Source of the DNA: an uncultured Granulosicoccus sp.
Lineage (GTDB): Bacteria > Pseudomonadota > Gammaproteobacteria > Granulosicoccales > Granulosicoccaceae
Assembly: GCA_937991945.1 (NCBI GenBank)
Contig: CALKLO010000034.1
Location: forward strand, 19,270-83,269
Direction: 5' to 3'
Length of the DNA: 64,000 nt
A model generated the notes under the pieces. The model had not been told where the DNA came from. It made no database searches and worked only from the letters and a program-made list of their open reading frames with translations. Shown here piece after piece: positions 1-4,956 of the stretch; the stretch's first letter is position 1; the number at the start of each line of letters is the position of its first letter. The position numbers were made by a program, and so were the translations under genes.

Positions 1-342
1 TTCGTGGGTGCAGAAGCCGTAAATGCTGGCTTAGCGGACTACACAGGGACTCTAGACGAGATCTTGGGCGGAGACTTTGCGCAAACTAAAACCTCAAAAT
101 TACCCAGCACCATCGGAGCTCATATGAACACTAAAAGCACGACACAAACAGCGGTTGATGATTCCGCCGACATCTGGAACCACTCCTCCGCTAAAGAAGT
201 TGAGACCGAGCAAGTTGCAGAAACAGAATTCGACACCAACGCTGCGCTATATGAATTATTGCCTGAATCCTCGTTAGAAGAATCTGACTCAGATGACGAT
301 GACGACTCTGCAAATGTTTGGGATCAATACGCAGCGCGGTAA
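1..342 (+). CDS. S49 family peptidase (SppA/phage head-maturation protease-like), C-terminal part, 5'-truncated by the window edge
   Basis: Frame is open from base 1. FVGAEAVNAGLADYTGTLDEIL matches the S49 C-terminal G-x-x-A-(V/I)-x-x-G-L-A-D motif, followed by an acidic low-complexity tail. Catalytic residues are not visible. Confidence 0.6.
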   Translation, partial: FVGAEAVNAGLADYTGTLDEILGGDFAQTKTSKLPSTIGAHMNTKSTTQTAVDDSADIWNHSSAKEVETEQVAETEFDTNAALYELLPESSLEESDSDDDDDSANVWDQYAAR

Positions 343-401
343 AGAGCAAAAATGGGGTTGGCGAACACTGTGACGGTTGATACAGCCCTGGGGTGCTGTT
401 C

Positions 402-458
402 ATGGCGAGAATGCTCAGTCTCCAGAGCAATAGGGTATCCAAAATTCTCGCCATTTTT
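402..458 (+). terminator. Stem-loop/terminator between the convergent S49 and SIR2 genes
   Basis: Perfect 11-bp inverted repeat ATGGCGAGAAT (402-412) / ATTCTCGCCAT (444-454) followed by a T run. Confidence 0.5.
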
Positions 459-502
459 CATTAGAATTCAGAAGTGCTCTTGTTAACGCCAATCTGCTGC
501 CT

Positions 503-2284
503 TTAGAATCGCTCTTGGCGTCGATGGTACTTCAGATTCAAAATGAAAAGCTCCAAAATGCGACGGCATTGATTTGACAAACCAGCCATTTGCAATTCTT
601 CGATAAGCGTTTCACTTTCAAACTCTGCAATGAGTGCATTCCCTATGTCATAGGAACATACAGCATGGCCCAATGGCATCCACTCAATTTGCTCGTTGGC
701 TAGATGCCTGGCTTCCATGGTCGGAAGATCGGAGCCTACAAAATGCATGAAGGCACCAATTAATTCGAACCGTGCAAATAGGATCTGGAAATTAGGATCT
801 GTTCCAACAAAATGTGGCGACCATGCTTGTATGGCACCTGATAGATGCATATTAAATGGTATTTTTTTCGTGTTCTTTGAAAACTTGGGTAGTAGGTTCC
901 ATACACTTTTTTCACCTCCGCTCCATGCCCCAGGAAATAACTTAAATACTTTTGAGTCTCTTTCTTGATGGCTAGACTTTAAGTTGTGCAAGAGTAACCG
1001 ATGCAATGCTTCCCATTTATGCGCTGTTACTAATCCCAGGCAGTAAGTTGACAGTAACAATACTGCGGGATAGGCACCGAGACGCTTGAGCTGAACGAGA
1101 CCAGTGTTTTGCCTTTCCACCTGTTGCATCACAGCTTCAATTATATCGATAACTAAATGCTGTTCACTTTCGCCACCCCAGCGGCCGAGGATTCCGCACA
1201 TACAGGCTAGTGGCTCTGTACAGGCCTCGTAACGTGAAATTCTAACGGCTAATTCGTTAGCGTCTATTTTGTGGTTGTATTCGAATGCGTCATCGCTCAG
1301 GTGCGCTAACAAGCGTTGTTGTTCCTGTGCAAATAAATCATCTAGGTTAATTCTTTGCTCTTTAGACGCAATGTATTTTTTCGTAGAGTTAATCAACAGC
1401 TCGAGGCTTAACGGGTTGATTTTTGAGCTGTTCTGAATTGCTTCGACGCTTTCTTGTAAAGCGTGAAAGAAATCGTCAGCATTGGCGATTTCTACTTCTT
1501 TGGCTCTTCGAAGATCTGCTAGCGACTGAGCTTCTCCTATGAGCGGTCCCCGCGTAGTCCAATAAGTGGGATAACGTCTATTAGGTGCACGGGAAATCGC
1601 TGCTTTTAGAGCATGATCCCATTCACCCGACCAGCCACAGATAACCAATCCGAATTCGTCAAGGATGCGGTCAAGCAATTCGTTGTATTTATCTGGGTAG
1701 GCTGTTAATTCATCGTCTGTGTTTAGGATTCGTGCGTCTTTGTAGTCACCATGCAACTTAAATAGATAGCAACGACTGTGGGTGAGGGGGTCCGCACCTA
1801 GCAAAGTGTCCTCAGATGTTATTACGGTGGGTTCCACACCAGCATCACGGAGCGCTTTCTCCATGAGTCGGTCGAAATTAGTCGTCAGAATTACTCTTAC
1901 AAATCCGTCACTTACCAGCTTCGCGATGGCGTGATGAGCCTTGGTAGGTAGTTTTCTGCCTTCTTCTTTCTCCTCTTCAGACGGCTCAATGTAGCCTTCA
2001 AGAATCTTGCGACGTTCAGAAGCAGTTGTTGTTAATTCGTCGAGTAGTTGGGAATAGTTTGGTTCTTGGCCGAACTGATCTGTGTACCATTCATTCCAGT
2101 CAGTTTGCTCACCTTCACCTTTGGCCGTGGCGGCCTTCCTAACGAGATCTAGCGTTATGTCCCAGCCGGTAGGTATACCTGCAGACCTAGACACGCCGGA
2201 ACCTAGAAGCAGAGCATACACGCCCTTGTTTTCGTGCATGGAGAACGCGAGTTGAGTGGCATTGTCGTCCCTGAGTATGCTCAT
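503..2284 (-). CDS. SIR2-domain protein (SIR2_2-type predicted NADase) with an unassigned ~300-aa C-terminal region; candidate anti-phage effector
   Basis: LLLGSGVSRSAGIPTG (GxGxS), ILTTNFD and LFKLHGD sirtuin-fold motifs intact; 593 aa; located in a mobile element. Confidence 0.85.
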   Translation of the reverse strand: MSILRDDNATQLAFSMHENKGVYALLLGSGVSRSAGIPTGWDITLDLVRKAATAKGEGEQTDWNEWYTDQFGQEPNYSQLLDELTTTASERRKILEGYIEPSEEEKEEGRKLPTKAHHAIAKLVSDGFVRVILTTNFDRLMEKALRDAGVEPTVITSEDTLLGADPLTHSRCYLFKLHGDYKDARILNTDDELTAYPDKYNELLDRILDEFGLVICGWSGEWDHALKAAISRAPNRRYPTYWTTRGPLIGEAQSLADLRRAKEVEIANADDFFHALQESVEAIQNSSKINPLSLELLINSTKKYIASKEQRINLDDLFAQEQQRLLAHLSDDAFEYNHKIDANELAVRISRYEACTEPLACMCGILGRWGGESEQHLVIDIIEAVMQQVERQNTGLVQLKRLGAYPAVLLLSTYCLGLVTAHKWEALHRLLLHNLKSSHQERDSKVFKLFPGAWSGGEKSVWNLLPKFSKNTKKIPFNMHLSGAIQAWSPHFVGTDPNFQILFARFELIGAFMHFVGSDLPTMEARHLANEQIEWMPLGHAVCSYDIGNALIAEFESETLIEELQMAGLSNQCRRILELFILNLKYHRRQERF

Positions 2285-2286
2285 AT

Positions 2287-2325
2287 CTAAAGATCTCTTC
2301 TAGCAGCTTTGTCTAGGTGGGTGCG
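2287..2325 (-). pseudogene. Remnant 3' end of a second RHH gene copy (RTHLDKAARRDL*) directly upstream of SIR2
   Basis: 2301-2325 matches 2878-2902 at 22/25 nt and all three differences are synonymous. The stop codon lies 2 nt before the SIR2 ATG. No in-frame ATG/GTG/TTG before the upstream stop at 2401-2403. Confidence 0.7.
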
Positions 2326-2425
2326 ATGATTCAGTCGCGTTTGTGATGTCGTTGAATTTACGTAGGCGGCATATAAGCGAATCTCAACGCAGCATGGTGA
2401 CTACGAGTATGCGAATCTGATTCCG

Positions 2426-2851
2426 TTATTCCAGATTAGTTAGAGTGGCAGTGTGCTCGTTCATGGATACGCTAATCGGATATTCAAATGCAGATCCGTC
2501 AGCAATGACACGTAGCCGCCACTTCTCGATATCGTGATTTTGGTTTGCAGTAATTAGCCCTTTTATTATTTGCTCAGAATCGATTTGCATGTAATCAAAA
2601 CCAGCGGCATCGTCGATAAAGTCTTTTACATCCTGTACACAGTGGCTATCTTGGTTTTTCACCTTGAGATTCTCGGTAATGTCAGTGCTAATCGTCGCTA
2701 CAGAATTTTCGATTTCAATTTCAGTAATTTTTATTTGTAAGTCATGCCAGCTTCCATGACCTTTCCGCATGCGAAAATAAGCTAATTCCGGGCCTTTCTT
2801 CAAGGGTTTTTTCATTAAAACAATCTCCATTCGGGGGCCCTGACCGATCAT
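2426..2851 (-). CDS. Hypothetical protein (141 aa), mobile-element cargo
   Basis: ORF starts 6 nt after the RHH stop on the same strand; no recognisable motif. Confidence 0.6.
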   Translation of the reverse strand: MIGQGPRMEIVLMKKPLKKGPELAYFRMRKGHGSWHDLQIKITEIEIENSVATISTDITENLKVKNQDSHCVQDVKDFIDDAAGFDYMQIDSEQIIKGLITANQNHDIEKWRLRVIADGSAFEYPISVSMNEHTATLTNLE

Positions 2852-2857
2852 GCCAGG

Positions 2858-3052
2858 TCACTTACTCAATTCACGTGTAGCAGCTTTATCCAAGTGGGTG
2901 CGTACCCAGTCCGCTCTAGACTGACGTGTTTTCGCAGCTGCTTGGTCGTAGCTGGCAATTTGCTCTTCAGTGACTCTCACCGACCCAAGAGACTTGCTGG
3001 CAGGGTTTAGGCTTGGTGGCCGCCCAGGCTTCTTTTTGCTTTGTATTGGCAT
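2858..3052 (-). CDS. Ribbon-helix-helix DNA-binding protein (64 aa), probable repressor
   Basis: MPIQSKKKPGRPP...SVRVTEEQIASYDQAAAKTRQSRADWVRTHLDKAA: GRP arm, alternating beta-strand, then two helices. The ATG at 3052 is preferred because the longer ORF-track start runs through the promoter. Confidence 0.7.
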   Translation of the reverse strand: MPIQSKKKPGRPPSLNPASKSLGSVRVTEEQIASYDQAAAKTRQSRADWVRTHLDKAATRELSK

Positions 3053-3070
3053 CCGAGAATGATAACAAAC

Positions 3071-3127
3071 GCATATGCATAAATATATGCATTTATTATT
3101 GACTGCTATATATGCATATGCAACAAT
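3071..3127 (+). promoter_or_regulatory. Rightward sigma70 promoter overlapped by (AT)GCAT-based palindromic operators
   Basis: TTGACT (3099-3104)-17 bp-AACAAT (3122-3127). Palindromes GCATATGC 3071-3078, ATGCAT 3075-3080 and 3087-3092, TGCATATGCA 3113-3122. Confidence 0.6.
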
Positions 3128-3235
3128 CAATTCACTGGTCAAGGGTAAGGACCAAGAAACGGCAAGAAGTGGCCCGCTAAGGAGTGCAATCCAAAGCAGG
3201 CCGACGCCACAACTAACCTCACTAAGGATTTAGTT

Positions 3236-3421
3236 ATGACAAATCGCATTATACAGGCGTTCTCACGTGCACTTAATGACGCAGTTTCACACCTACTTCA
3301 ATACGAGGAGAAGTTGCCAGCAATCTTTATATCAGTGGTCATGGCCTCTATTGGGTTGGTTAGTATCGACAGTGCAATTGCAGTAATCGATATCAGTCAC
3401 TCTATTGGAGCCACGGCATGA
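3236..3421 (+). CDS. Small hypothetical protein (61 aa) with a hydrophobic segment
   Basis: AAGGA RBS upstream; ATGA overlap with the next ORF; lies downstream of the predicted promoter. Confidence 0.55.
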   Translation: MTNRIIQAFSRALNDAVSHLLQYEEKLPAIFISVVMASIGLVSIDSAIAVIDISHSIGATA

Positions 3422-3855
3422 ATAACAAAGACAACAATTTACAAAAAGACGGCGCTAAATCAAATAAAGTACAGCAGCCCTTAATGGGAATACGTCCTGA
3501 CATGGATTTAGAGTCACGAGATGACTGGCAACACTCCGACGCTTTGTACATTGACAAGTTCTTAATGAGAGCGTTTACAGCATCTACTCAGGAAGAAGCG
3601 CGAAATGCCAAAGACGGTTTATACAGCCTGCAGGAACAATGCCTTCTACACATGAGGTCTTTATCCGAGCTGGAAACAGTTCTTCGTAAGTACCAGGACA
3701 AGATTGGCTACGACCACGACGAGGTGGCATTCAATGAATTGATGTCGTTTCTATCAAGCGTGGGTGCCAGTCTGGCAGGCGTAACCCATCAGCTAGGTTT
3801 TACGTATGCTTTGAGCGAGGTGCAGGGGGCTGGCCGAGAGGGTGCAGGCGGCTAG
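3418..3855 (+). CDS. Hypothetical helical protein (145 aa)
   Basis: ORF coupled to the previous one; GGAG RBS; no recognised motif. Confidence 0.6.
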   Translation: MNNKDNNLQKDGAKSNKVQQPLMGIRPDMDLESRDDWQHSDALYIDKFLMRAFTASTQEEARNAKDGLYSLQEQCLLHMRSLSELETVLRKYQDKIGYDHDEVAFNELMSFLSSVGASLAGVTHQLGFTYALSEVQGAGREGAGG

Positions 3856-4069
3856 GTGCAATTGTCTGTTGAGGGCAAGTGCTAATATTAAACGGCGATT
3901 TATGGGGCTGTGTAGACTGCACGGCAGCAATAATGCCACCCCCGGTGTCGGCTGCAGCCCTTATGAATGCTGGGGATGTCGGGTATGTCGAAGTATCCAG
4001 CTATTTTTCGTTGAGGTCGGCTTTCCAGGATCGCTGAATGGGGTAGGGATGCTAAGCCTTAGCGTTTTC

Positions 4070-4624
4070 TCAAAAGAAAAACACATATACACCGGCTGAG
4101 CCCGCAATTAAAAATGGCAATAAGTAGTCTGTGGCTAAGGGCGAATTGATCACAAAACGGTTTATCGCGCACACATAGATACTTATTGCTTGGTGGGCGG
4201 TAATCCGAAATTCAGGCCTTGATAGTTCACTGCTGCTATCAGGTGTTTTTAAGTGGAAGCCTGCGCTGCCGCTATAACCAACAGAGTTGTAAACAGTTCC
4301 GCCTCGCACGTCGTAATTGCTTTTGTCTATTACTTTCTGGATGGAAACTGAAACATGTGCATACCAGCGGTGCCGCAATCCTAGCTCTGAGTCATAAAAG
4401 TACTGCCAGTAACGCAATAATGCGTAAAACCAAAGTAGACCTAATGTTTTTTTTACGACGTCAGGATTTTCGATTTCAGCAACCAAGCCGATCAAGTTAA
4501 GCTGGGTAAACTTAAATTCGCCGAGGTTCACCACGACGATAGCAAGACAAGCTAGCAGTAGGTTTCTGCGTTGCCGAAGTAGGCCTGGAGGGATTTCGTG
4601 CTCTTTCCTGGCGTGACCTGACAT
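4070..4624 (-). CDS. Hypothetical membrane protein (184 aa, about 3 TM segments)
   Basis: Hydrophobic stretches after RQRRNLL, around LLWFYALLRYWQYF, and at the C-terminus; located at the element end. Confidence 0.7.
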   Translation of the reverse strand: MSGHARKEHEIPPGLLRQRRNLLLACLAIVVVNLGEFKFTQLNLIGLVAEIENPDVVKKTLGLLWFYALLRYWQYFYDSELGLRHRWYAHVSVSIQKVIDKSNYDVRGGTVYNSVGYSGSAGFHLKTPDSSSELSRPEFRITAHQAISIYVCAINRFVINSPLATDYLLPFLIAGSAGVYVFFF

Positions 4625-4676
4625 TTTGATCCAAAATTTAACTACAAAAAGGTGTAACTAAATTCTCACTCAGAAC

Positions 4677-4712
4677 AACCCTGAAACTGTAGTTAACCCT
4701 AAAGTTAACCCT
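4677..4712. repeat. Direct repeats near the att junction (possible integrase arm-type sites)
   Basis: AGTTAACCCT at 4691-4700 and 4703-4712 (12-bp period); third AACCCT at 4677-4682. Confidence 0.55.
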
Positions 4713-4793
4713 TGGCGGGAAATTTGATTCTAAGCAGGAGTCCCGCTATACGAAGCAAGTGCATATTGCACTTGTATAGCAGGAAAAAGTAAG

Positions 4794-4869
4794 TGGCTCC
4801 CTGGGACGGGCTCGAACCGCCGACCCAATGATTAACAGTCATTTGCTCTACCAACTGAGCTACCAGGGA
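4794..4869 (-). tRNA. tRNA-Asn (anticodon GTT)
   Basis: Reverse complement TCCCTGGTAGCTCAGTTGGTAGAGCAAATGACTGTTAATCATTGGGTCGGCGGTTCGAGCCCGTCCCAGGGAGCCA: 76 nt, cloverleaf, TTCGA T-loop, encoded CCA. Confidence 0.97.
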
Positions 4870-4879
4870 ATCGGAGCGA

Positions 4880-4908
4880 AGTTTAAAGCGCTTATGTCTC
4901 TACGTCAA
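4880..4908 (-). promoter_or_regulatory. sigma70 promoter of tRNA-Asn
   Basis: Minus strand TTGACG-17 bp-TAAACT followed by a GC-rich discriminator. Confidence 0.7.
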
Positions 4909-4926
4909 TCACTTAGCGACTAATAA

Positions 4927-4956
4927 TTGAGTCTATTTTCATCTTGGATGTACAAT
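4927..4956 (+). promoter_or_regulatory. Putative sigma70 promoter of uvrB
   Basis: TTGAGT-18 bp-TACAAT; supports the ATG at 4986 as start. Confidence 0.45.

What the first reader, a model, noticed from the sequence alone, without database searches (positions are those of the whole stretch)
2282..2902. Duplicated repressor 3' end marks a cargo-capture hotspot: both cargo genes sit right behind an RHH tail
Seen: 2301-2325 (tagcagctttgtctaggtgggtgcg) matches 2878-2902 in the RHH gene at 22/25 nt. On the coding strand the differences (CTA/TTG Leu, GAC/GAT Asp) are all synonymous, so this looks like the tail of a diverged RHH allele (RTHLDKAARRDL* vs RTHLDKAATRELSK*) rather than a fresh tandem duplication. 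The remnant stop lies 2 nt before the SIR2 ATG, and the intact RHH stop lies 6 nt before the 141-aa ORF. Inference: cargo genes are exchanged or stacked by recombination in the repressor's conserved 3' end, so each lands co-transcribed with (and possibly translationally coupled to) the constitutive repressor. This would give an integron-like array of candidate defence genes without an integron integrase.
Basis: partly seen in the sequence, partly recalled or inferred. Interest (0 to 1): 0.85.

Follow-up and report, generated by a model that had tools for sequence, protein, structure and literature searches.

The report
Regulator-gene relic in a satellite defence slot
A 39-base leftover of a second copy of a small regulator gene sits directly in front of a SIR2 defence gene in a marine phage-satellite-like island, marking an old recombination joint in a slot where related elements carry different accessory genes; this is a clear example of a known kind of defence hotspot, not an integron-like system.

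Summary
2301-2325 matches 2878-2902 at 22/25, with none expected by chance. In frame the match extends to 12 codons plus a stop (2287-2325, RTHLDKAARRDL*), 2 nt before the SIR2 ATG. Of 9 nt differences from the intact tail, 10/12 residues are kept (P about 0.002). So the relic comes from a diverged, once-functional allele, not from a fresh duplication.

The setting is a tRNA-Asn island with AlpA, a D5-type primase and a head-maturation protease. A small RHH-like regulator is transcribed divergently from a conserved 61/145-aa operon. Behind this regulator, related contigs and runs carry at least six unrelated sequences, and one relative carries nothing. Near-identical regulator alleles (96% nt) stop resembling the window at 2872-2883. 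Most junctions overlap the stop codon or lie within 2 nt of it. SIR2 is PADLOC candidate PDC-S65.

The "variable cargo slot behind the regulator" is therefore supported. The "integron-like" reading is not: there is no site-like DNA conservation, since only synonymous sites vary, and no relics occur in the other arrays. Ordinary recombination between related elements explains the data. Co-transcription is inferred, not shown.

This is a new member of a known kind (P4/P2/PICI defence hotspots; lambda cI-rexAB).

The parts
2287..2325 (-). Relic of the 3' end of a second RHH-like regulator allele: 12 codons (RTHLDKAARRDL) plus a TAG stop. It is now non-coding, with no in-frame start upstream. It forms the 5' leader of SIR2, including the purine-rich GAAGAG 10 nt before the ATG.
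2858..3052 (-). Intact RHH-like regulator gene, 64 aa (MPIQSKKKPGRPP...RTHLDKAATRELSK*). The conserved block matching the relic is 2878-2902. No Shine-Dalgarno sequence precedes the ATG.
   Evidence: ORF. Family hits are weak: Pfam RHH_1 E 0.06, PHROG 876 'transcriptional repressor' 6e-4, NCBIfam VapB 0.003. Homologues were found in L001, L006, L095, L103 and L186.
2426..2815 (-). First cargo gene, most likely 129 aa starting at Met13 (the mechanical ORF of 141 aa starts at 2851). Function unknown. It belongs to a small family of roughly 130-aa proteins.
   Evidence: 12 distant homologues at 25-34% identity. No Pfam, PADLOC or NCBIfam hit. The AF2 model has pLDDT 69 and no significant PDB match.
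2326..2425 (-). 100-nt spacer between the 129-aa gene and the relic. Its origin is unknown. No terminator-like or sigma-70-like site was detected on this strand.
   Evidence: fold z = +0.8; no match in any fetched locus.
503..2284 (-). SIR2-domain protein, 593 aa. It is a member of the PADLOC candidate single-gene defence system PDC-S65.
   Evidence: PDC-S65, E 6e-208, profile positions 15-583 of 592. (SIR2_2, 53 bits against a cut-off of 24.5). (5645 homologues).
3053..3235 (.). Divergent control region between the RHH gene and the 61/145-aa operon. It holds palindromic operator-like repeats (GCATATGCAT..., 3071-3134) and a rightward promoter-like site at 3099-3127.
   Evidence: (D3, I7, I16). 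The same motifs stand upstream of the RHH gene in L001 and L006.
3236..3855 (+). Conserved partner operon of the regulator: a 61-aa ORF (3236-3421) and a 145-aa protein (3418-3855).
   Evidence: Homologues of the 145-aa protein lie next to RHH homologues in L001, L006, L095 and L186. In L184 the homologue precedes a Phage_pRha/ANT antirepressor gene.
343..502 (+). Right flank of the cargo slot: the intergenic stretch after the convergent protease gene. It contains a terminator-like hairpin (402-412 / 444-454) followed by a T run.
   Evidence: Read from the sequence. Partly conserved in run X8: 354-389 at 80% or more (run X10: 343-389), and about 73% onward in the 30-nt loose end.
4..342 (+). 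3' end of the element's head-maturation-protease gene (346 aa in full). It converges on the cargo genes.
   Evidence: L002; phrog_53, E 4.5e-48.
4794..4869 (-). tRNA-Asn (GTT). Its 3' end faces the island.

Best explanation
What it is. The 39-nt stretch is the surviving 3' end of a second, diverged allele of the island's small RHH-like regulator gene. It marks a recombination joint.

The setting. The island is a phage-satellite-like element at tRNA-Asn, with an AlpA-type excisionase or regulator, a D5-type primase, a repressor-like protein and a head-maturation protease. Its RHH-like regulator and a divergent 61/145-aa operon form a conserved control module. The stretch between the regulator's stop codon and the convergent protease gene is the element's accessory slot, and here it holds defence genes.

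Inferred history. One ancestor had the regulator (ending ...RTHLDKAARRDL*) joined directly to the SIR2 gene, with 2 nt between stop and ATG. A related element had regulator-129aa. An illegitimate join between the two put the 129-aa gene and its 100-nt trailer in front of codon 51 of the other allele. The two elements could have been tandem copies or co-resident. This stacked both genes behind a single intact regulator gene. The relic probably persists because it now serves as the SIR2 leader and ribosome-binding region.

How the slot turns over. Content is exchanged by ordinary recombination between related elements. The regulator gene is the left homology arm and the protease-side flank is the right arm. 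The left joints fall within the last 15 or so codons of the regulator or at its stop.

Expression. The cargo is most likely transcribed by read-through from the regulator's promoter. In several alleles it appears translationally coupled to the regulator.

Shown: the relic, its coding-type divergence, the variable content of the slot, the clustered joints and the gene identities.
Inferred: the order of events, the recombination mechanism, co-transcription and the regulator's role.
For: The repeat is real and non-random.

The relic diverged as a coding sequence. It has 9 nt differences from the intact tail but keeps 10/12 residues. P = 0.002 against the window allele and 0.0001-0.0003 against L001 and L006. 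Its tail fits the family pattern A-A-x-[RKY]-[EDAT]-L seen in seven alleles.

The 5' edge is sharp, at codon 51.

Table of what follows RHH:
- Window: 129-aa gene, then relic plus SIR2.
- L001: ATGA overlap to a 170-aa membrane protein, then SIR2 (58% identity).
- L006: ATGA overlap to a 177-aa membrane protein (37% identical to the L001 protein), then a 178-aa protein, then SIR2 (62% identity).
- Run X8, allele a: 96% nt identity over 2880-3038, tail AAKRALSSP*, then unlike sequence.
- Run X8, allele b: tail AAKKELSR*, TGA directly followed by ATG.
- Runs X12, X13, X15, allele c: 96% identity in X15, tail AAKKTLDN*, TGATG overlap.
- Run X1: allele a' breaking at 2872.
- L186: a distant homologue followed by another ORF 30 nt later.
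- L095: a distant homologue with nothing behind it; a convergent gene ends 10 nt away.

The left side of X8's element is 93% identical to the window from 3023 to 3987. Part of the right flank is kept as well.

Element identity rests. SIR2 = PDC-S65.

No terminator-like site lies on the minus strand between RHH and SIR2.

Precedent: in P4 and P2 hotspots, small core-gene pseudogene fragments are read as remnants of intense recombination, and systems are swapped rather than decaying (PMC13586616). Satellite hotspots are described in PMC9122126.
Against: - No element with the predicted ancestral junction (RHH ...RRDL* directly before SIR2) was found in any collection.
- L001 and L006 carry genes between RHH and SIR2 without any relic, so insertion does not always leave one.
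- The cargo genes behind alleles a, b and c could not be read beyond 30 nt. 'Unrelated' means under 80% nt likeness to the window and different start sequences, not characterised genes.
- X8's RHH contigs are not physically linked to its flank contigs.
- The promoter scan also fails to find a promoter for the RHH gene itself, so its silence in the spacer is weak evidence for read-through.
- The RHH fold is not established. All family hits are below curated cut-offs, and the AF2 monomer model shows one long helix.
- The family is very rare (3 close loci plus a few run contigs), so the statistics on joints are thin.
Confidence: 0.65

Rival explanations
1. The RHH protein is not the island's master regulator but the dedicated regulator (or antitoxin-like partner) of each defence cassette. 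On this view the relic comes from a mobile two-gene 'RHH-SIR2' module placed behind an 'RHH-129aa' module, and the variable C-terminal tails reflect partner specificity.
For: Among the fetched PDC-S65 loci, a subset carries a small XRE-HTH gene next to SIR2. In L007-L010, L012, L018, L021, L022 and L078 its stop overlaps the SIR2 start by 4 nt. In L011 the overlap is 1 nt. In L013 and L014 it ends 47 nt upstream. So regulator-SIR2 pairs exist in this family. Stop/start overlaps behind RHH resemble toxin-antitoxin operons, and there is a weak VapB-type hit (E 0.003).
Against: The RHH gene always sits divergently beside the 145-aa-family operon, with shared palindromic operators (window, L001, L006, L095, L186). 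In L095 it has no downstream partner. In L103 a relic lies beside that operon without any SIR2. The tail after the conserved helix is only 4-7 residues, too short for a toxin-binding domain (own knowledge of type II antitoxins). None of the 80 fetched genome loci with PDC-S65 has this RHH.
Confidence: 0.17
2. Integron-like site-specific capture. The conserved 24-nt block at the RHH 3' end is a recombination site at which promoterless cassettes are inserted and stacked by a dedicated recombinase.
For: Joints cluster at or next to this block. Cargo is promoterless-looking and co-oriented. One array carries a second copy of the block.
Against: Across five alleles the block varies at six synonymous positions and at none of the non-synonymous ones, so its conservation is protein-level. 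There is no inverted-repeat or attC-like structure around it. Joints lie on either side of the block and also at the stop codon, not at one fixed point. The arrays in L001 and L006 have no second copy. No recombinase gene lies in the 9.7 kb available.
Confidence: 0.06
3. In-situ tandem duplication of the RHH 3' end, for example during insertion of the 129-aa gene, followed by neutral decay of one copy.
For: Two direct copies lie 577 nt apart and bracket one gene.
Against: Identity is only 75% over 36 nt, with 7 of 9 differences synonymous and both replacements conservative (P about 0.002 under random substitution). The rest of the region shows no comparable decay. The relic's tail differs in length from the intact one.
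Confidence: 0.05
4. Chance similarity between a short non-coding stretch and the RHH tail.
For: The match is short. About 0.2 pairs at 22/25 would be expected among all pairs of positions in 64 kb (my estimate).
Against: No shuffle reached it. It is in frame, ends in a stop, follows the family's tail motif for four further codons, and sits exactly at a gene boundary 577 nt from its partner on the same strand.
Confidence: 0.01

Closest known systems
[quoted passage not shown]
   Same: A phage-satellite-like element carries a fixed slot, flanked by conserved core genes, whose content differs between close relatives and consists of defence genes. Turnover is by swapping. Small relics of core genes in the slot are read as scars of recombination.
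   Different: The element family is different: marine metagenomes, tRNA-Asn, an RHH-like regulator and no P4 markers tested. The slot begins inside or at the last codons of a regulator gene. The cargo is co-oriented with that gene and often overlaps its stop codon.
Phage lambda cI-rexA-rexB operon (own knowledge)
   Same: Defence genes lie directly behind the maintenance regulator on the same strand and are expressed with it. The regulator's ATG lacks a Shine-Dalgarno sequence, and a -10-like TATCAT lies 6 nt upstream, reminiscent of the leaderless cI transcript from PRM.
   Different: Neither repressor function nor co-transcription is shown here. The regulator is a 64-aa RHH-like protein, not a cI-type HTH repressor.
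PICI and capsid-forming PICI accessory regions carrying immune systems (own knowledge; satellite surveys in PMC10085698)
   Same: An AlpA-type gene, a primase, a packaging or capsid-related gene and an accessory region next to one attachment end. The relative L095 has terminase, capsid, portal and integrase genes like a capsid-forming island.
   Different: The integrase and the far end were not available. Membership in any PICI class was not tested with the published marker sets.
Integron cassette arrays
   Same: Promoterless, co-oriented genes are stacked behind one upstream promoter.
   Different: There is no IntI, attI or attC. The junction sequence is conserved only as protein, and the joints are not at one fixed point.
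PADLOC PDC-S65 SIR2 proteins paired with a small XRE-HTH gene (loci L007-L014, L018, L021, L022, L078)
   Same: The same SIR2 family. A small DNA-binding protein gene stands immediately upstream, and in most of these loci it overlaps the SIR2 start, as inferred for the ancestral RHH-SIR2 junction.
   Different: The regulator has a different fold (HTH rather than RHH-like), and the carriers are different (ICE-like regions).

Membership tests
PDC-S65 (PADLOC candidate single-gene defence system; SIR2_2 domain) | Full-length match to the PDC-S65 profile and a SIR2_2 domain above Pfam's threshold | tested here: met
   PDLC05061 E 6.3e-208, residues 5-585 on profile positions 15-583 of 592. PF13289 at 53.2 bits against a cut-off of 24.5.
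PDC-S65 (PADLOC candidate single-gene defence system; SIR2_2 domain) | Protection against phage | not testable with these tools
   Needs expression and phage challenge. No paper in the held library mentions PDC-S65.
Ribbon-helix-helix (CopG/Arc/MetJ) DNA-binding proteins | Sequence match to an RHH profile above threshold | tested here: inconclusive
   Pfam RHH_1 at 13.8 bits against a cut-off of 20.5, E 0.06. NCBIfam VapB 18 bits against 60. PHROG 876 'transcriptional repressor' E 6e-4. No PDB sequence match.
Ribbon-helix-helix (CopG/Arc/MetJ) DNA-binding proteins | Strand-helix-helix fold that forms a dimer | tested here: inconclusive
   The AF2 monomer model (2-sequence alignment) has pLDDT 73, one helix over residues 29-63 and no strand. 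A dimer could not be modelled.
Phage satellite (P4-like or PICI-like in the broad sense) | Integration next to a tRNA, an AlpA-type regulator or excisionase, a primase/replicase, few structural genes | tested here: met
   tRNA-Asn. HTH_17 / phrog_66, D5_N primase / phrog_864, and a head-maturation protease as the only structural-type gene in 9.7 kb.
Phage satellite (P4-like or PICI-like in the broad sense) | Integrase, second attachment site, total size below a phage genome | not tested
   The element runs off the window and off contig L002. No second copy of the tRNA 3' end is in the sequence held.
Mobile-element defence hotspot | Different gene content in the same slot between conserved flanks in related elements, with defence genes among the content | tested here: met
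   At least six unrelated sequences lie behind RHH alleles and one site is empty. The left flank is 93-96% identical in X8. The right flank is partly kept. SIR2 = PDC-S65, and Gabija lies next to the slot in L006.
Integron | IntI-type integrase with an adjacent attI and promoter | tested here: not met
   No integrase gene lies in the 9.7 kb around the array.
Integron | attC-type imperfect inverted repeats at each cassette boundary, conserved as DNA or as structure | tested here: not met
   No such repeats were found. The spacer fold is no better than shuffles. The boundary block varies only at synonymous sites. There are no boundary repeats in L001 or L006.

The most novel reading that the evidence does not exclude
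The last 8-15 codons of a satellite's regulator gene act as a shared in-frame 'docking' segment. Because the protein tolerates any short tail after ...LDKAA, new genes can be joined there by crossovers in the conserved block. They instantly acquire the regulator's promoter and, through stop/start overlap, its ribosomes. This would give a recombinase-free way of building regulator-driven defence operons, and it would be general to a family of marine satellites.
Probability: 0.15. Interest if true: 0.6.

Novelty: new member of a known kind. Interest (0 to 1): 0.42.

Why it matters
It gives a clean, dated scar of how a defence operon was assembled in a mobile element. The scar's synonymous-only divergence shows that two functional regulator alleles from different elements were brought together. 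The related junctions show that the slot behind the regulator turns over between near-identical elements in marine metagenomes. This extends the hotspot picture worked out for E. coli P4 and P2 to an uncharacterised marine satellite family. It also nominates several genes as candidate defence or counter-defence genes: the 129-aa protein, the 170-178-aa membrane proteins and the unread cargo in three run alleles. It does not reveal a new mechanism of gene capture.

Tried and rejected
- Searches for close RHH relatives gave almost nothing. The protein database gave 1 cluster. GTDB genomes, IMG/VR and JGI metagenomes gave none by protein patterns. Plasmids gave only 36-47% identity hits and phages none. 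IMG/VR gave none by DNA pattern.
- A degenerate DNA pattern for RTHLDKAA in metagenomes gave 88 hits. Of these, 87 are unrelated proteins or non-coding, and one (L103) is a real second relic.
- I tested whether the relic extends upstream as a decayed gene. The similarity is not significant, even though tblastn shows a weak gapped alignment (TSQTRLNH against TRQSRADWV).
- None of 80 genome loci with PDC-S65 has this RHH or its tail upstream.
- No contig in runs X1-X3 and X11 joins RHH directly to SIR2 by skipping the 129-aa gene. Contigs do drop rare variants.
- No RNA run holds the locus.
- The structure of the 129-aa protein gave only non-significant PilZ-like or beta-barrel matches.
- The spacer, the 129-aa gene, the 61-aa and 184-aa genes and the right flank match nothing in any fetched locus.
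- The two L006 membrane proteins are not detectably paralogous.
- A transposon-type target-site duplication was considered and rejected: a fresh target duplication would be identical, whereas these copies are only 75% identical and their differences are mostly synonymous (own knowledge of transposition).
Full report
**1. The observation**

The 25-mer at 2301-2325 recurs at 2878-2902 with three mismatches. These are the only two matches with up to 3 mismatches in the window, and 100 dinucleotide-preserving shuffles gave none. It is the strongest direct repeat in the first 5 kb, and the repeat tool extends it to 32 nt.

On the minus strand the downstream copy reads RTHLDKAARRDL, then TAG, two bases, and the ATG of the 593-aa ORF 503-2284. 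The upstream copy is the end of the 64-aa ORF 2858-3052 (...RTHLDKAATRELSK*). Over the 12 codons, 27/36 nt and 10/12 residues are identical.

Upstream of codon R51 there is no significant similarity to codons 1-50 of three RHH alleles (local alignment against 1000 shuffles, P 0.07-0.86). The relic has no in-frame start codon after the nearest upstream stop (sequence). It is therefore a non-coding remnant with a sharp 5' edge.

**2. Is it the tail of a diverged, once-functional allele?**

Starting from the intact tail and placing nine random substitutions keeps at least 10/12 residues without a stop in only 0.18% of trials. For the L001 and L006 tails the figures are 0.03% and 0.014%. For the first eight codons alone, three substitutions are all synonymous in 1% of trials.

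The four codons beyond the 25-mer (R-R-D-L) fit the pattern seen at the same place in other alleles: TREL, KREL, EYDL, KRAL, KKEL, KKTL, KRDL, ARDL. This rules out chance and a fresh in-situ duplication followed by neutral decay.

**3. What the genes are**

- The 593-aa protein is a full-length member of PADLOC's candidate single-gene system PDC-S65 (E 6e-208) and has a SIR2_2 domain.
- The 64-aa protein has only sub-threshold matches: RHH_1 (E 0.06), a PHROG of transcriptional repressors (6e-4) and a VapB-type RHH antitoxin model (0.003). A monomer AF2 model is uninformative. I call it RHH-like, by inference.
- The ORF between them is mechanically 141 aa. Gene callers use Met13 (129 aa), a GGAG lies 9 nt before that ATG, and distant homologues of about 130 aa align from residue 13. 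The true gap after the RHH stop is therefore probably 42 nt, not 6. Its function is unknown: there are no family hits, and the AF2 model (pLDDT 69) has no significant PDB neighbour.

**4. The element**

A public contig identical to window 1-4933 extends 4.7 kb further (L002). Beyond SIR2, on the other strand, it carries:
- a head-maturation protease (phrog_53, 4.5e-48);
- two unknown genes;
- a repressor-like protein with a LexA-type DNA-binding domain;
- a D5_N/DUF5906 primase;
- two small genes;
- an HTH_17/AlpA-type excisionase or regulator.

The 3' end of tRNA-Asn (4794-4869, minus strand) faces the island. This is the gene set of a phage satellite in the broad sense. The integrase and the far end are not in the sequence held.

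The RHH gene is transcribed divergently from a 61-aa and a 145-aa gene, across a 180-nt region with palindromic repeats.

**5. Relatives**

The RHH family is very rare. Loci were reached through SIR2, through the 145-aa neighbour, through a DNA pattern and through sequencing runs.

- (a) L001: RHH (81% aa identity...AAKRELKK*), ATGA overlap, a 170-aa membrane protein, 47 nt, then SIR2 at 58% identity.
- (b) L006: RHH (...AAEYDLKK*), ATGA overlap, a 177-aa membrane protein (37% identical to the L001 one), ATGA, a 178-aa protein, 242 nt, then SIR2 at 62% identity. After that come protease fragments, a Gabija pair and a transposase.
- (c) Run X8 holds two alleles. One is 96% identical to the window over 2880-3038 and then unlike it; the loose end reads ...AAKRALSSP*. 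The other is 80% identical, ending ...AAKKELSR* with TGA directly followed by ATG. X8 has no sequence at least 80% like 2250-2879.
- (d) Runs X12, X13 and X15: an allele (96% identical in X15) that breaks at 2883, with tail ...AAKKTLDN* and a TGATG overlap into the next ORF.
- (e) Run X1: a variant of type (c) that breaks at 2872.
- (f) L186/L185: a distant homologue (...AAWVKESLDKCAKHTPKQ*) followed 30 nt later by another same-strand ORF.
- (g) L095: a terminase/capsid/portal/integrase contig with a distant homologue (...AAWVKRNLDRAAARDLK*) beside the 147-aa homologue. Nothing lies behind it; a convergent gene ends 10 nt away.
- (h) L103/L091: a 5'-truncated relic (QAAKVREQPLSAWVRTHLDKAAKRDLKK*) beside the 152/128/205-aa operon.

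The position behind this regulator is thus occupied by at least six unrelated sequences and is empty once. The joints with the window fall at codon 51 (the relic's edge), at codons 58-61 (c, d, e) or at the stop codon (a). Five of seven junctions have stop/start overlap or a gap of 2 nt or less.

**6. Flanks**

On the left, X8's element is 93% identical to the window from 3023 to 3987.

On the right, X8 keeps 354-389 (run X10: 343-389), and at about 73% identity the next 30 nt. This lies just after the protease stop and leads into a terminator-like hairpin (402-412 / 444-454 plus a T run) (sequence). The slot is therefore bracketed by conserved sequence, as expected for exchange by double crossover between related elements. 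Physical linkage of X8's contigs could not be shown.

**7. Is the conserved block a DNA site?**

Across the window gene, the relic, L001, L006 and L103, the 24 nt encoding RTHLDKAA vary at six positions. All six are synonymous, and none of the non-synonymous positions varies. There is no inverted repeat or stable fold around the relic. The joints do not fall at one point. L001 and L006 have no second tail. No recombinase gene is nearby. The integron analogy therefore fails on every defining feature tested.

**8. Expression**

No terminator-like site lies on the minus strand between RHH and SIR2, and no sigma-70-like site lies in the 100-nt spacer. The same scan also finds no promoter for the RHH gene itself, so this is weak evidence. 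No RNA run holds the locus. Co-transcription and coupling are inferred from strand, spacing and overlaps.

The relic supplies the only purine-rich stretch (GAAGAG, 10 nt before the ATG) upstream of SIR2. That may explain why it has been kept.

**9. Context in the SIR2 family**

In 80 genome loci with PDC-S65 at 44-52% identity, none has this RHH. A subset has an XRE-HTH gene next to SIR2, and in most of those loci its stop overlaps the SIR2 start by 4 nt. A small regulator fused to the front of this SIR2 is thus a recurrent arrangement. This makes the inferred ancestral RHH-SIR2 junction plausible. It also keeps alive the rival that RHH is a cassette regulator.

**10. Comparison with what is known**

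[quoted passage not shown] Marine satellites are abundant and poorly characterised (PMC9618062). Defence genes expressed with a prophage repressor are classical (lambda cI-rexAB; own knowledge).

The present case is a new family-level example. Its particular feature is that the slot begins within the last codons of a regulator gene and the cargo is often overlapped with its stop.

**11. Verdict**

- Observation: confirmed.
- Interpretation: partly supported. The relic of a diverged allele and the variable slot are supported; the integron-like mechanism is not; co-transcription is untested.
- Novelty: new member of a known kind.
- Interest: moderate.

Noticed in passing
window 3988-4741 (184-aa ORF 4070-4624, minus strand): There is a second variable slot, between tRNA-Asn and the end of the 145-aa gene. 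In run X8 these 754 nt are replaced by 741 unlike nt, while both sides stay alike. L001 has an unrelated 184-aa gene and an IS66-type transposase fragment at the same place. The window's 184-aa protein has no family hit.
   Followed up: partly
window 3053-3135: The RHH ATG (3052) has no Shine-Dalgarno sequence. A -10-like TATCAT ends 6 nt upstream of it, so the mRNA may be leaderless, as for lambda cI from PRM. Palindromic GCATATGCAT-type repeats (3071-3134) recur upstream of the RHH gene in L001 and L006.
   Followed up: no
L103 2182-2267 (and the same element in L091): An independent 5'-truncated relic of the RHH gene (last 28 codons plus stop) lies 25 nt from the start of the divergent 152/128/205-aa operon. 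Here the regulator's promoter and N-terminal half were lost, while the tail survived.
   Followed up: partly
L006 5987-11400: Next to the SIR2 gene lie fragments of the S49-type protease gene, a complete Gabija pair (GajA E 4e-293, GajB E 2e-242) and an rve transposase fragment. This looks like a decaying copy of the element turned into a defence island.
   Followed up: partly
L007-L014, L018, L021, L022, L078: PDC-S65 SIR2 genes in ICE-like regions (ParA, RPA, DUF2958, DUF3363 neighbours) are preceded by a roughly 100-aa XRE-family HTH gene. In most of these loci its stop overlaps the SIR2 start by 4 nt. In L011 the overlap is 1 nt, and in L013 and L014 the gene ends 47 nt upstream. The PADLOC 'single-gene' candidate may often be a regulator-effector pair.
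   Followed up: partly
L095 1-10027: This contig has an unusual gene order: HNH, small and large terminase, two small genes, then the RHH/147-aa switch module, then capsid, S78 protease, portal and integrase. It is possibly a capsid-forming satellite. Here the RHH homologue has no cargo behind it.
   Followed up: no
L184 802-1545: In one relative the 145-aa-family gene is followed by a Phage_pRha/ANT antirepressor gene. This fits the idea that the operon opposite the RHH gene is the element's early or induction operon.
   Followed up: no
window 81-342: The acidic C-terminal part of the protease/scaffold-like protein (the DSDDDDDS-rich tail) is unlike in run X8, although 1-80 and the stretch after the stop are alike. 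This is a variable tail in a core gene.
   Followed up: no
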